Below are positions 9,001 through 12,000 of a DNA stretch of 13,180 nt, piece by piece. How positions within the stretch are numbered: the first letter of the stretch is position 1; the number at the start of each line of letters is the position of its first letter. The DNA comes from a virus (taxonomy: Duplodnaviria; Heunggongvirae; Uroviricota; Caudoviricetes). The stretch is from the IMG/VR virus record IMGVR_UViG_2703719368_000028. One strand, given 5' to 3'. A program made the position numbers.

Positions 9001-12000
9001 ATTTATTCTTGAAGCTTTCGCTAAGTACTAACATTTAATAGCTCCTCATATTTCGAACGAGGTAATTGATAGAGGGTGATTCCTACCGGTTTTCCGTTAC
9101 TCATGTACGCATCATCAAGGTGACCAACACGGGTAGCGCCAAGCAAACGGATAATTGCCCGTCCGTATTTGGTGGTGTCAGGAACCATGGTGATGCTGTT
9201 AAGGAATGGTGAGTTTTCGAGAAGCCATTTGCAGAATAATCGATGCCCTTGTAGTGCATATTCGCCACGGAATCCGGGGTCATACACCGCATGGCATTCA
9301 ACAACGCTATGCCAGAAGTTACGCACTTCATGAACTCCAGCCAGCACTAATCCTTCGTAGATGCCGAGATATACCGCATCAGGCTTGATGTAGTATTTAT
9401 CTCCACTGTCTACGATATTCCCCGTGTTTACCGGGTTGTTAAGGAATTCTGCAAGTTTCACCGGGTTATCGATGAGCTTTATTTCCATCACTGCTCCGCA
9501 ATGATTTTGATGGTTGTGGCAGTAAACGCCGCGCCATTCGACTGAATGGTTAACGTGCTGCCATTTGTGGCAAGAAAGCCGTCTTTATCCACGCTGAAGA
9601 ACGTAGCTAACAGGATGTTGTCGGTTGTTGTTGCCGAGTTGCGACTGCTTACTAGCGTGTCAGGAACAGAACCGGAGAATGTTAGCTGCATTGACCTGTT
9701 GGCGGTTCCGCTGGGCCACGTCCCGACAATCGACAGCTTGAAGAACAAGGTTTTGTTCTCGTTGAACACAACCATCTTGTTGTTAACGGTGTCGAAGAAT
9801 GGTGCCAACGTCCCGGATGACGGCGTAAGCGTTTTCAGCAGGCTAACAAGGTTGGTCGGCGCTGTCGGGATGGTTACTGATACGCCAGAGTAAACAACCT
9901 CTGACTTCTTGCGCGTAGTGGCATACTCCAGAGCATTAATGCGCGTTTCATGGTCTGAAACCTGCGATTCCAGCGACTGAACTCTGGTATCAAGCGATGC
10001 AATATCGCTTTCATTCAAGGCAATCAGTGGGTTTACGTCATGGAGTGGGCTCAACACCAGTCAGAGCCGCATGTACACGCAATAATCATGGTGAACGAAA
10101 GAAGCATTAATGGGCAAGCTGGCAAAATTGTCAGCAAATGGGTAACACTGGCAAACAATGCAATCCCATCAAATGTTCCTCCCCAGTGGGATCTAGATTT
10201 GAAAGGTCAGCAATATTCAGAGCCTACAAAGTGTATAGGTAAACAGATTGATTACATGGCAAAGCCCGAAACTAAGTTAAATGACTTTAATAGAGAGGCG
10301 AGCAAGAGCCTATATGATTGGTCAGATGCCAACGTTTGGGGTTATTCGAATGGCTGGGCGCGGCATGAGATAAAAAAAGAAACACTTTCTATCACTGGCT
10401 TTCATGCTGTAAGACGCATACTAAAAGCCGTTCAGGCATCAAGGAAAGACAACTACAAAGCTAAGCGACAGATACAGCGTACATTGAAACGACAAGACAT
10501 AAATCGATCACCAATCACCCCGTTCCAAGCACCGTTAATTAGCAAACACGATTGGGATTTATCAGTGATAGCGGTCACCAAAGAGGCAGAGACAGAGCGC
10601 AGGGAATTACTATCCTCACAGATAATAAACTCGAACAAAGTACAAACCCACCCACTGTTAAGGATGTTAAGAAGAGCACGAGTGAGAGCATCCAGAGCCA
10701 AAAGAGAAAGCGGAGGTTATGACCATTACTACTAGTAGTGACAGATCGTGACAAGGCGGTGCAAAAAACGACCAATAATAAGAGAGATATGCCTGCCAAA
10801 CCGCCAAAAGCGCGGAGCGCGGCAAACGCCGCGAGAGGCGCAAGAAGGCGAACCTATCCATTGAAACGGTCAGAAGCGCATCGCGCTCGACGACCGAAGT
10901 CCCCACTAACACCGTTAACGAAAGATCAAAGTCTTAGAAAAAAATGACGTTTCTTTGATGGACTTCCATCCGTAAAAATCAAATTTTGAGAAAAAGTACT
11001 TATAGAAATTAATCGCTCTATAAGGATAAGTTGACGTTAGTTTAAAGTGATAAAACATTAAAGAAAAAACGTAAAATCAAATACATAAAATAAGTCACCA
11101 AGGGATCATTTTCAGAAAACAACGTCAACGTAACGTCAACTCTGTAAGAACTTTTTTGGTCACTTTTTGGGTTGAATGTACGTAAAAATCCCCAGCAGTG
11201 AAATTTGAGCGCGTAAGCACAATTCTGAGGGGCTTTTTGTCTGTAGGTTAGGCAGTGTAACTAACAATACAAGAAGTTAGCTCTGACTAACTATTTAATT
11301 AACTTTTCAATCTAATTGCGTTAGATATTATACCCTAACGCAATATTTTTAATTCAATAATGTCTGTAAATTGTTATTACTTATAATTATACATTTAACT
11401 ATATCTACATTGGCTGCTTCCAATTACTACTTACGTAACGGAATCTCGGATCCTCTGTTTTTGGCTCGGTATAATAAGAATCATCAATAGTAAAGTTCGA
11501 CGCTAATTTATCCCGAAGCCCACCTAAACGTTCAATGCTTGTTAGTTCGTTAGTAACATCCTTGAAAACGGTAGAAAATGCTTTATGTTGTTTAGACTTC
11601 ATAAATTCAGGAGTGCTCAGTGCAAACTCTTTATCAGGCAAACCTGGAATACCCACGAGTCCTGTCAATGAATTTATACATTTTATCAAAAAACTGCCTT
11701 GAATACCTTGATTTGATGGAACACCGTAGCTTCGTTTAATATCTCCAGATATTTTATCTAAATCACTTAGTAATTTTGTTACTTTTTTATTTCCTGCACT
11801 TATCCCCGATTCATCGTAGGTCACATGAATCTCTCGGATTACATCTCGACACGTACGAAAATGATCATGTGTTCTAAGCTCTAAAGCTGAATTGATAACT
11901 TGAGAGACATTTCCTGTTTCGTTTGCTAGCCATGCAGAAAATATTGGTAAATCTAATGAAATAGTAGATGTGCGTCCATGATCTACAATTTCAGATCTTG

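What the first reader, a model, noticed from the sequence alone, without database searches (positions are those of the whole stretch)
9488..10735. Breakpoint between the truncated tail-needle gene and a divergent 231-aa basic ORF
The needle-like gene lacks its N-terminal part and has no ATG, and its 5' end overlaps by 18 bp the start of a plus-strand ORF whose product has an Arg/Lys-rich tail (...LLRMLRRARVRASRAKRESGG) and ends with three consecutive stop codons. This marks a second deletion or insertion junction in the prophage; the 231-aa gene appears to be inserted cargo, possibly functionally linked to the repeat array downstream. I could not assign the protein to a family.
Basis: partly seen in the sequence, partly recalled or inferred. 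Interest (0 to 1): 0.45.

Follow-up and report, generated by a model that had tools for sequence, protein, structure and literature searches.

The report
Deletion scar joining two dead elements
The "231-aa basic ORF" is the tail end of a plasmid-type rolling-circle replication gene that a deletion fused head-to-head to a truncated phage tail-needle gene in the known cryptic prophage Sp16 of E. coli O157:H7, so it is ordinary genome decay and not inserted cargo.

Summary
The Sf6/P22-type needle gene (minus strand) keeps only residues ~107-282. Its homology stops at window 10016. From 10017 the plus strand is codons 112-350 of a 350-aa HUH rolling-circle replication protein (Pfam PF23343). The ORF at 10040-10735 starts at that protein's internal Met120.

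Both genes have lost their 5' parts and meet at a blunt junction. The missing halves are nowhere nearby, so this is a deletion and not an insertion.

Intact relatives show where the rep fragment came from. It belongs to an 8-10 kb island integrated at the same tRNA, argW. The island's gene order is integrase, AlpA, small genes, Rep, a ~500-bp conserved repeat-bearing non-coding block, variable cargo, a small gene and a resolvase. It is flanked by 20-bp repeats. Its Rep-to-resolvase backbone is syntenic with free 5.5-kb Klebsiella plasmids.

A P22-like phage integrated at argW in tandem with this island. A deletion then removed everything between the needle gene and rep. The junction is fixed in the O157:H7/O55:H7 lineage, about 310 of 5,426 complete genomes.

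The literature already scores Sp16 as chimeric, with defective replication and no excision. Interest is low. The side leads are the undescribed island family and its 470-aa orphan cargo gene.

The parts
5640..5714 (+). tRNA-Arg(CCT), argW. Its 3' end is the shared attachment site (attL) of the elements to its right.
   Evidence: ARAGORN; Rfam tRNA. The last 20 nt are repeated at the right end of intact islands.
5840..7033 (+). intS, the integrase of the P22/Sf6-like prophage remnant.
   Evidence: PGAP 'prophage integrase IntS' in EDL933. 97% identical to intS of the complete O26 argW prophage.
7208..8344 (-). In-frame fusion of the ejection protein gp20 N-terminal part with the C-terminal part of an O-antigen acyltransferase. 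This is the first deletion scar of the prophage, at about 7690.
   Evidence: Pfam Inj_translocase on aa 12-217 plus Acyl_transf_3 on aa 230-343. Homology to gp20 of the O26 prophage starts at 7695.
8354..9491 (-). P22 gp7-like ejection protein (8354-9034) and the DUF2824/gp14-like protein (9021-9491).
   Evidence: Pfam P22_gp7 5.7e-90; DUF2824 8.4e-65.
9488..10016 (-). Tail-needle (gp26-type) gene fragment. It keeps the knob and part of the coiled coil (residues ~107-282 of 282) and has lost the N-terminal 106 residues.
   Evidence: PF16532 1.7e-117; alignment to the Kapi1 needle; megablast end point 10016; PGAP pseudogene.
10016..10017 (.). Blunt deletion junction: the last phage base is 10016 and the first island base is 10017.
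   Evidence: Three-way DNA alignment of window, Kapi1 needle and MIN14 rep. The rep match starts at nt 335 of 1053. EDL933 versus MIN14 blastn.
10017..10735 (+). 3' part (codons 112-350) of a HUH rolling-circle replication initiator gene. The 231-aa ORF 10040-10735 starts at internal Met120. HUH motif: HVHAII, ORF aa 11-16. Catalytic-Tyr motif: Y72-x-x-K75. Motif I is deleted.
10733..10741 (+). Three consecutive in-frame stop codons, TAG TAG TGA, ending rep.
   Evidence: Sequence. Conserved in E. coli, E. albertii and Klebsiella alleles.
10742..11242 (.). Conserved non-coding island backbone and putative origin. It has a GC-rich part with a nested palindrome at 10810-10841. It also has an AT-rich part with ACGTCAAC at 11030-11037 (minus strand), 11122-11129 and 11133-11140, and CGTAAAAATC at 10971 and 11181.
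   Evidence: Conserved in MIN14, E. albertii and (split by cargo) Klebsiella. ACGTCAAC occurs 3 times against 0.36 expected. DNA fold z = -2.2. Homology to MIN14 ends at 11242. The origin function is inferred.
11243..12972 (-). Variable cargo slot of the island. In this lineage it holds a 470-aa orphan gene (11405-12817, minus strand).
   Evidence: No homology to MIN14 between 11243 and 12972. Other islands carry different genes here. Homologues of the 470-aa protein.
13004..13180 (-). 58-aa conserved small gene of the island backbone. It precedes the resolvase, which lies beyond the window end.
   Evidence: Homologous to the MIN14 58-aa gene. The resolvase follows in EDL933.

Best explanation
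Window 9488-10735 is a blunt deletion scar between two mobile elements that were once integrated in tandem at the tRNA gene argW.

Shown:
- Left of 10016 lies the remnant of a P22/Sf6-like prophage: intS, a gp20'::acyltransferase' fusion, gp7, gp14 and a needle fragment. Its late genes read towards argW.
- Right of 10017 lies the right arm of a small argW island. It comprises rep codons 112-350, a ~500-bp conserved repeat-bearing non-coding block, a cargo gene, a 58-aa gene, a resolvase and the island's attR.
- The deleted material would have comprised the needle 5' end, the rest of the prophage, the internal att site, and the island's integrase, AlpA, small genes and rep 5' end.
- The 231-aa 'gene' is an ORF-calling by-product. 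It begins at an internal methionine of rep.
- The 18-bp overlap arises because the needle frame runs on into rep-derived DNA until it meets a GTG.

Inferred:
- The fragment is non-functional as a replication initiator. It lacks motif I and the central beta-strand of the HUH fold, together with the N-terminal 111 residues. No consensus promoter lies at the junction, and I saw no obvious ribosome-binding site by eye.
- In the intact island, Rep would nick and bind the downstream block to replicate the excised circle by a rolling-circle mechanism, as in the related small plasmids. The resolvase would resolve multimers.
- The order of events (tandem integration followed by one deletion) is inferred from an O26 genome that still has the complete prophage in exactly the predicted orientation, followed by another integrase.
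For: Junction mapping:
- Phage homology ends at 10016. Rep homology starts at 10017, which is rep nt 335, codon 112.
- The needle keeps aa ~107-282.
- The 231-aa ORF equals aa 120-350 of the 350-aa P0001 at 97% identity.

HUH identity of Rep:
- The full-length protein passes the PF23343 gathering score, 29.7 against 27.8 bits. All 21 aligned relatives hit PF23343.
- The motif I TLT is nearly invariant; H-x-H and Y-x-x-K are invariant.

Intact islands at the same argW site, with 20-bp direct repeats:
- E. coli MIN14, 10.3 kb, and Klebsiella, 8.1 kb; E. albertii contig with the island's right arm and the att repeat.
- EDL933 keeps the island's attR with a 1-bp deletion.

Other support:
- The missing halves are absent locally.
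- Tandem precedent with the correct prophage orientation in O26 RM10386.
- No rep homologue in 50,697 phage records.
- Distant homologues lie on small Klebsiella plasmids whose 68aa-126aa-Rep...resolvase order matches the island.
- The same junction occurs in 309 complete genomes, including O55:H7.
- Published experiments found no circularisation, replication or packaging of Sp16 and scored its replication function 'defective' (PMC2669165).
Against: - No genome was found that still carries the exact ancestor, that is, the P22-like prophage plus an intact island with the 470-aa cargo. That cargo occurs only with the truncated rep. One deletion versus several steps therefore cannot be distinguished.
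- The fragment's reading frame is still open over 714 nt. Only 5 lineage-specific substitutions exist, 2 of them non-synonymous. Decay versus retention by selection cannot be judged.
- Expression was not measured.
- The origin function of the repeat block is inferred from conservation only, and the nick site is unknown.
Confidence: 0.88

Rival explanations
1. Insertion model: a small element carrying the basic ORF and the repeats inserted into the needle gene of the prophage, either as cargo or as a 'helper-embedded' satellite that targets a phage late gene.
For: Satellites that integrate into prophage late genes exist (PMC10111431, listed). The ORF and repeats do lie inside what is catalogued as one prophage, Sp16.
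Against: - The junction lies inside rep at codon 112, not at an element end.
- The island's integrase, AlpA and attL are missing.
- The needle N-terminal 110 aa are not found anywhere in the window or in a 26-kb stretch of the EDL933 locus.
- The island's right end is its normal attR next to chromosomal genes, as in intact islands.
Confidence: 0.03
2. Domesticated fragment: the truncated Rep (HUH and Tyr motifs plus a basic C-terminal domain) is expressed from Met120 or Met136. It would be retained for a function such as binding the adjacent repeats to regulate the cargo gene, or blocking incoming related replicons.
For: - The frame is intact in about 310 genomes and PGAP calls a 215-aa protein.
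- The conserved C-terminal basic domain and the repeats it might bind are both retained.
- Other independent truncations also keep the 3' end of rep: P0006, P0011 and H143.
Against: - The ~310 genomes are one clonal lineage, so an intact frame carries little weight. There are only 5 substitutions on this branch.
- No promoter-like site lies at the junction, and I saw no obvious Shine-Dalgarno sequence by eye.
- The first core strand of the HUH fold is missing.
- Retention of 3' ends in other fusions is expected from how they were found, since the search used rep as the query.
Confidence: 0.07
3. Rep-mediated rearrangement: the junction was produced by aberrant rolling-circle or one-ended activity of the HUH protein itself, in the manner of IS91/ISCR elements, rather than by an ordinary illegitimate deletion.
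For: - HUH enzymes can generate variable end points.
- Several different junctions fall within or next to this module.
- The join is blunt, with no microhomology.
Against: - The break is inside the rep coding region, far from the putative origin.
- No origin-like sequence (ACGTCAAC or the GC palindrome) occurs at the needle side of the junction.
- One of the other junctions is a simple internal int'::rep' deletion.
- Nothing distinguishes the event from ordinary illegitimate recombination.
Confidence: 0.02

Closest known systems
Sp16, the cryptic prophage at argW of E. coli O157:H7 Sakai (same locus in EDL933)
   Same: It is this locus. The window is 100% identical over 9400-11400 to EDL933 and about 300 other O157 genomes. 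Sp16 is mapped to argW (PMC3519850). It is described as chimeric or highly disrupted, with integration '+' and replication 'defective', and showed no excision, replication or packaging in experiments (PMC2669165).
   Different: The published description treats Sp16 as one degraded, possibly lambdoid prophage. Here it resolves into two unrelated elements: a P22/Sf6-like left arm and a plasmid-like argW island right arm. They are joined at 10016/10017 and bounded by argW attL and the island's attR.
P22 gp26 / Sf6-type tail needle (PF16532 knob)
   Same: The C-terminal knob and the distal coiled coil are 94% identical to the Kapi1 needle. Gene order gp7-gp14-needle is as in P22-like phages.
   Different: It lacks the N-terminal 106 residues, so it cannot be a functional needle. 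In P22 that region includes the part that plugs the portal channel (my own knowledge). The other virion-assembly genes seen in complete P22-like prophages are absent from the locus.
HUH rolling-circle replication initiators (Pfam PF23343 REP_ORF2-G2P; structural neighbours SIRV1 ORF119, parvovirus NS1 nuclease, pMV158 RepB)
   Different: The family is very small: 29 cluster representatives at E <= 0.001 among 1.84 billion. It carries a ~150-aa basic C-terminal extension. The window copy lacks motif I. Nicking activity and the nick site are untested.
Small cryptic Klebsiella plasmids such as pWP7-S17-ESBL-08_3 (5,747 bp) and pMB7964_2 (5,466 bp)
   Same: pWP7-S17-ESBL-08_3 (5,747 bp) has the same module order: 68 aa, 126 aa, Rep, small cargo, a small minus-strand gene, serine recombinase. 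Pairwise identities to the island proteins are 44%, 39%, 24-28% and 45%. pMB7964_2 (5,466 bp) matched only in the 68-aa, Rep and recombinase proteins.
   Different: The plasmids are free circles without an integrase/AlpA module or att sites. The island adds a P4-type integrase, a 251-aa gene and AlpA, and lives in the chromosome at argW.
Minimal phage satellites and tRNA islands (PICMI of Vibrio, PICI, P4-like elements)
   Same: Small size (8-10 kb). A tyrosine integrase next to an attachment site, AlpA, its own replication initiator, and a variable accessory slot that in Klebsiella holds a PADLOC defence candidate. PICMI is reported to replicate in a rolling-circle-like manner (PMC10803314).
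   Different: No helper phage, packaging signal or induction has been shown. No homologue occurs in phage records. The backbone is plasmid-like with a resolvase. Membership in any satellite family is untested.

Membership tests
HUH rolling-circle Rep (PF23343 REP_ORF2-G2P) | Motif I (hydrophobic-T-L-T strand) | tested here: not met
   The window ORF starts at family residue 120, and rep DNA starts at codon 112. Motif I (T86 L87 in P0001) is deleted. It is present in full-length relatives.
HUH rolling-circle Rep (PF23343 REP_ORF2-G2P) | Motif II, His-hydrophobic-His metal site | tested here: met
   HVHAII at ORF aa 11-16. H130 and H132 are invariant in 21 relatives.
HUH rolling-circle Rep (PF23343 REP_ORF2-G2P) | Motif III, catalytic Tyr (Y-x-x-K) | tested here: met
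   IDYMAK at ORF aa 70-75. Y191 and K194 are invariant.
HUH rolling-circle Rep (PF23343 REP_ORF2-G2P) | Profile score above the Pfam gathering threshold | tested here: not met
   The fragment gives no Pfam hit at E <= 0.1. The full-length P0001 scores 29.7 against 27.8 bits. 21 of 21 relatives hit, best E 8.2e-11. The gene family is therefore assigned, but the window copy is a fragment.
HUH rolling-circle Rep (PF23343 REP_ORF2-G2P) | HUH nuclease fold | tested here: met
HUH rolling-circle Rep (PF23343 REP_ORF2-G2P) | Site-specific nicking and initiation at a cognate origin | not testable with these tools
   Only a conserved repeat-bearing block downstream is seen.
P22/Sf6 tail needle (gp26 type) | C-terminal Sf6-type knob domain | tested here: met
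   PF16532 over the whole 175-position profile, E 1.7e-117.
P22/Sf6 tail needle (gp26 type) | N-terminal tip and full coiled coil | tested here: not met
   Residues 1-106 of 282 are absent and are not found elsewhere in the locus.
tRNA-integrating island with tyrosine integrase | Integrase next to attL, and direct repeats of the tRNA 3' end at both ends | tested here: inconclusive
   Intact relatives have a 428-aa integrase and 20-bp repeats. In the O157 copy the island's own integrase and attL are deleted. Only attR, with a 1-bp deletion, remains, outside the window.
Phage satellite (PICI / PICMI / P4-like) | Helper-phage-dependent induction and packaging | not testable with these tools
   No homologue in phage records. 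Sp16 showed no excision or packaging in Sakai (PMC2669165), but that copy is truncated.
Anti-phage defence cargo | Match to a known or candidate defence protein model | tested here: not met
   The 470-aa O157 cargo and the MIN14 cargo have no PADLOC hit. Only the Klebsiella cargo matches PDC-M68A, 8.6e-34.

The most novel reading that the evidence does not exclude
The right half of 'Sp16' would be the remnant of an undescribed family of integrative rolling-circle plasmids. In this reading a small Rep-resolvase plasmid backbone acquired a P4-type integrase/AlpA module. The elements target argW in Escherichia, Klebsiella and Citrobacter. They swap one- to three-gene anti-phage cargo at two defined slots. 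The O157/O55 lineage would have kept the immobilised arm because its cargo is a new single-gene defence or conflict protein. That cargo is a 470-aa orphan that is 55-85% identical across Gamma- and Betaproteobacteria and is also found in a Vibrio cassette array and in a Pseudomonas conflict island.
Probability: 0.3. Interest if true: 0.5.

Novelty: new member of a known kind. Interest (0 to 1): 0.2.

Why it matters
For the finding itself, little. It is a fixed deletion scar in a cryptic element that the literature already treats as chimeric, replication-defective and immobile.

The useful outcome is a correction of annotation:
- 'Sp16' is two elements, not one prophage.
- The 215/231-aa 'hypothetical protein' is a truncated rolling-circle Rep.
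- The repeats belong to that Rep's conserved downstream block.

Two by-products could matter more. The first is a compact, apparently unnamed island family that links free small plasmids to tRNA-integrated islands and carries exchangeable cargo. The second is a widely transferred 470-aa orphan protein that sits in its cargo slot in every O157:H7 genome examined.

Tried and rejected
1. Hairpin covariation. In alignment A6 a hairpin at 11000-11025 seemed to covary between E. coli and Klebsiella. Alignment A9 showed the Klebsiella AT-rich block really lies after its cargo, so the covariation was an alignment artefact. The claim is dropped.
2. AlphaFold of Rep with a 6-sequence alignment gave pLDDT 38 and was unusable. 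It was repeated with 21 diverse relatives.
3. A small basic ORF at 10738-10947 looked coding. It is frameshifted in MIN14 and unrelated at protein level in Klebsiella, so it is not treated as a gene (by eye).
4. A substitution count on the rep fragment found 5 lineage-specific changes, too few to say anything about selection.
5. The profile search of PDB sequences gave only non-significant hits.
6. The search for related loci in species genomes returned only two loci.
7. PADLOC, Pfam and NCBIfam found nothing for the fragment or the 470-aa cargo.
8. Rfam found nothing in 9400-11500.
9. The promoter/terminator scan was at chance level.
10. Literature searches for the island family returned nothing: argW plus rolling circle, yfdC plus hotspot, PF23343. 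Moritz & Welch 2006 on the argW-dsdCXA island is not held.
11. A search for an intact ancestor carrying the 470-aa cargo found none among complete E. coli genomes.
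Full report
**Where the window comes from.** Window 9400-11400 is 100% identical to E. coli O157:H7 EDL933 and to about 300 other complete genomes. In EDL933 the region lies just downstream of the tRNA-Arg gene argW. PGAP annotates, in order: intS; a 'phage DNA ejection protein'; a 'DNA transfer protein'; a DUF2824 protein; a 'tail needle knob protein, incomplete, missing N-terminus'; a 215-aa hypothetical protein; a 470-aa hypothetical protein; a 58-aa protein; and a serine recombinase. This is the cryptic element Sp16 (PMC3519850).

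**Checking the observation.**
- The ORF list gives a minus-strand ORF at 9488-10057 (GTG start) and a plus-strand ORF at 10040-10735 (ATG, 231 aa). They overlap by 18 bp.
- The minus-strand product carries a complete Sf6-type knob domain (PF16532, 1.7e-117). It aligns only with residues ~107-282 of the 282-aa needle of phage Kapi1. Its first 14 codons are unrelated.
- The plus-strand ORF ends in a basic tail followed by TAG TAG TGA.

**Placing the junction.** Megablast to P22/Sf6-like phages stops at window 10016. So does blastn to a complete argW prophage of an O26 strain. A three-way alignment shows the window following the needle gene up to ...CATTC (10016). From AAGGCAATCAG (10017) it follows a replication gene, with no base shared by the two parents at the join. 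In the replication gene this point is nucleotide 335 of 1053, that is, codon 112.

**What the 231-aa ORF is.**
- A protein search found a 350-aa protein (P0001) that is 97% identical over the entire ORF. The ORF corresponds to its residues 120-350.
- The same frame remains homologous upstream of the ATG, back to 10019.
- Full-length relatives (324-350 aa) are named 'rolling circle replication-associated protein' in RefSeq.
- They pass the gathering score of Pfam PF23343, REP_ORF2-G2P. All 21 diverse relatives that I aligned hit that family.
- The alignment has a nearly invariant TLT (motif I), and an invariant H-x-H (motif II) and Y-x-x-K (motif III).
- With that alignment AlphaFold gave a usable model (pLDDT 78).
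- The window copy keeps motifs II and III but has lost motif I and the first core strand. This explains why the fragment alone has no Pfam hit.
- The family is tiny: 29 cluster representatives among 1.84 billion proteins.

**Where the rep gene belongs.**
- In E. coli MIN14, and in Klebsiella pneumoniae, the full-length gene sits in a compact island directly downstream of argW. A Citrobacter contig shows the same arrangement as far as it extends, and an E. albertii contig shows the island's right arm.
- The gene order is: integrase (428 aa), a 246-251-aa gene, AlpA, three small genes, Rep, a conserved non-coding block, variable cargo, a small minus-strand gene and a serine recombinase.
- The last 20 nt of argW are repeated just after the recombinase. 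This delimits islands of 10.3 kb (MIN14) and 8.1 kb (Klebsiella).
- EDL933 aligns with MIN14 from the junction to window-equivalent 11242, and again from the 58-aa gene to the island's attR. EDL933 retains that attR with a 1-bp deletion.
- 'Sp16' is therefore bounded on the left by the prophage's attL in argW and on the right by the island's attR. It is a chimera of two elements.

**Deletion, not insertion.** The N-terminal 110 residues of the needle and the N-terminal 115 residues of Rep give no tblastn hit in the window or in 26 kb of EDL933 around it. An O26 strain still has the complete P22-like prophage at argW. Its order is intS, acyltransferase, tailspike..., gp20, gp7, gp14, needle, gp10..., torI, then a 14-bp att repeat, then another integrase. 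This is exactly the orientation needed for a single deletion, from the needle gene rightwards into a downstream island, to give the head-to-head arrangement seen here. No phage record contains a rep homologue, so the gene is not a phage moron.

**Distribution.**
- The rep gene occurs in 538 of 5,426 complete E. coli genomes, and 221 of them have it essentially full-length (at least 80% of its length).
- In an evenly spaced sample of the remaining hits, nearly all begin at nt 335, i.e. carry this junction; one search finds the junction itself in 309 genomes. These include O55:H7 strains, so the scar predates the O157:H7 clone.
- A few genomes have other truncations. Two fusion proteins in the database illustrate independent deletions into rep. 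One is the island's own integrase (aa 1-170) joined to Rep aa 257-350. The other is a Rad52-family protein joined to Rep aa 212-350.
- Because I found these by searching with rep, they say nothing about a preference for rep as an end point.

**The repeats downstream.**
- The ~500 bp after rep (10742-11242) is conserved in MIN14 and E. albertii.
- It has a GC-rich part containing a nested palindrome at 10810-10841 (DNA fold z = -2.2, weak).
- It also has an AT-rich part. There ACGTCAAC occurs three times within 110 bp against 0.36 expected in the whole window.
- In Klebsiella, whose Rep is only ~51% identical, the AT-rich block with ACGTCAACGTAACATCAAC is also conserved. However, it lies after the cargo. 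There are therefore two cargo slots.
- The block is under constraint. I take it as the likely origin for Rep, but this is an inference and the nick site is unknown.

**Relation to plasmids.** Distant Rep homologues (24-29% identity) lie on small non-mobilisable Klebsiella plasmids. One of them, 5,747 bp, has the same order: 68 aa, 126 aa, Rep, small gene, small minus-strand gene, recombinase. Its identities to the island proteins are 44%, 39% and 45%. The island is best seen as such a plasmid backbone joined to an integrase/AlpA module.

**Function of the fragment.** No promoter-like site lies at the junction. By eye there is no obvious ribosome-binding site before either ATG. The HUH core is incomplete. 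Published work scored the replication function of Sp16 as defective and detected no circularisation, replication or packaging (PMC2669165). I conclude that the ORF is a relic. A retained function cannot be excluded from sequence alone, because the lineage is too young to show decay.

**Verdict.** It is partly wrong: the ORF is not inserted cargo and not a whole gene. The feature is ordinary decay of stacked mobile elements at a known integration hot spot (argW; PMC4366372).

Noticed in passing
window 11405-12817 (minus strand): A 470-aa orphan protein in the island's cargo slot. It has no Pfam, NCBIfam or PADLOC hit. It is nevertheless 55-85% identical, at constant length, in Dickeya, Vibrio, Salmonella, Shewanella, Pseudomonas, Aeromonas and Burkholderiales. 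In V. vulnificus it sits among cassette-like small genes. In P. moorei it sits beside SMC_N/MComp1/CTD4 conflict genes. Among complete E. coli genomes it occurs in 317, all at >=99% identity; every listed serotyped example is O157:H7 or O55:H7.
   Followed up: partly
window 7208-8344 (minus strand), junction near 7690: An in-frame fusion of the N-terminal 217 residues of the P22-type ejection protein gp20 with the C-terminal part of an acyltransferase. This is the first deletion scar of the prophage remnant. It removed gp16, the tailspike and neighbouring genes.
   Followed up: partly
window 1-5519: The end of a lambdoid prophage (antirepressor, ORF6N, MT-A70 methyltransferase, DUF1627, a second integrase at 4275-5519 on the minus strand). 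It abuts the 5' side of argW. It is absent from EDL933 and is fully matched only in strains ERL04-3476 and ERL05-1306. argW is a documented Stx-phage site, so three mobile elements are stacked at this tRNA (PMC5359411).
   Followed up: partly
window 1280-1363 (plus strand): An Rfam sRNA-Xcc1 match (78 bits against a gathering score of 53) overlapping the start of the ORF6N-domain gene in the lambdoid prophage.
   Followed up: no
window 10733-10741; L003 about 11040-11050: The rep gene ends with three consecutive in-frame stop codons in E. coli (TAG TAG TGA) and in the ~51%-identical Klebsiella allele (TAG TAG TAA). The conservation is unexplained.
   Followed up: no
L003 11327-12766 versus window 11243-12972: The island family has two different cargo slots. 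In Klebsiella and Citrobacter the cargo is an HNH_2 protein matching PADLOC candidate PDC-M68A plus two small genes. It lies between the GC-rich and AT-rich parts of the post-rep block. In E. coli and E. albertii the cargo lies after the AT-rich part.
   Followed up: partly
L001 about 16845-16866 (EDL933, outside the window): The island's right attachment repeat survives in O157 with a 1-bp deletion (TTCGATTCCTGCAGGGACACCA). The catalogued 8.55-kb 'Sp16' thus runs from a phage attL to an island attR.
   Followed up: yes
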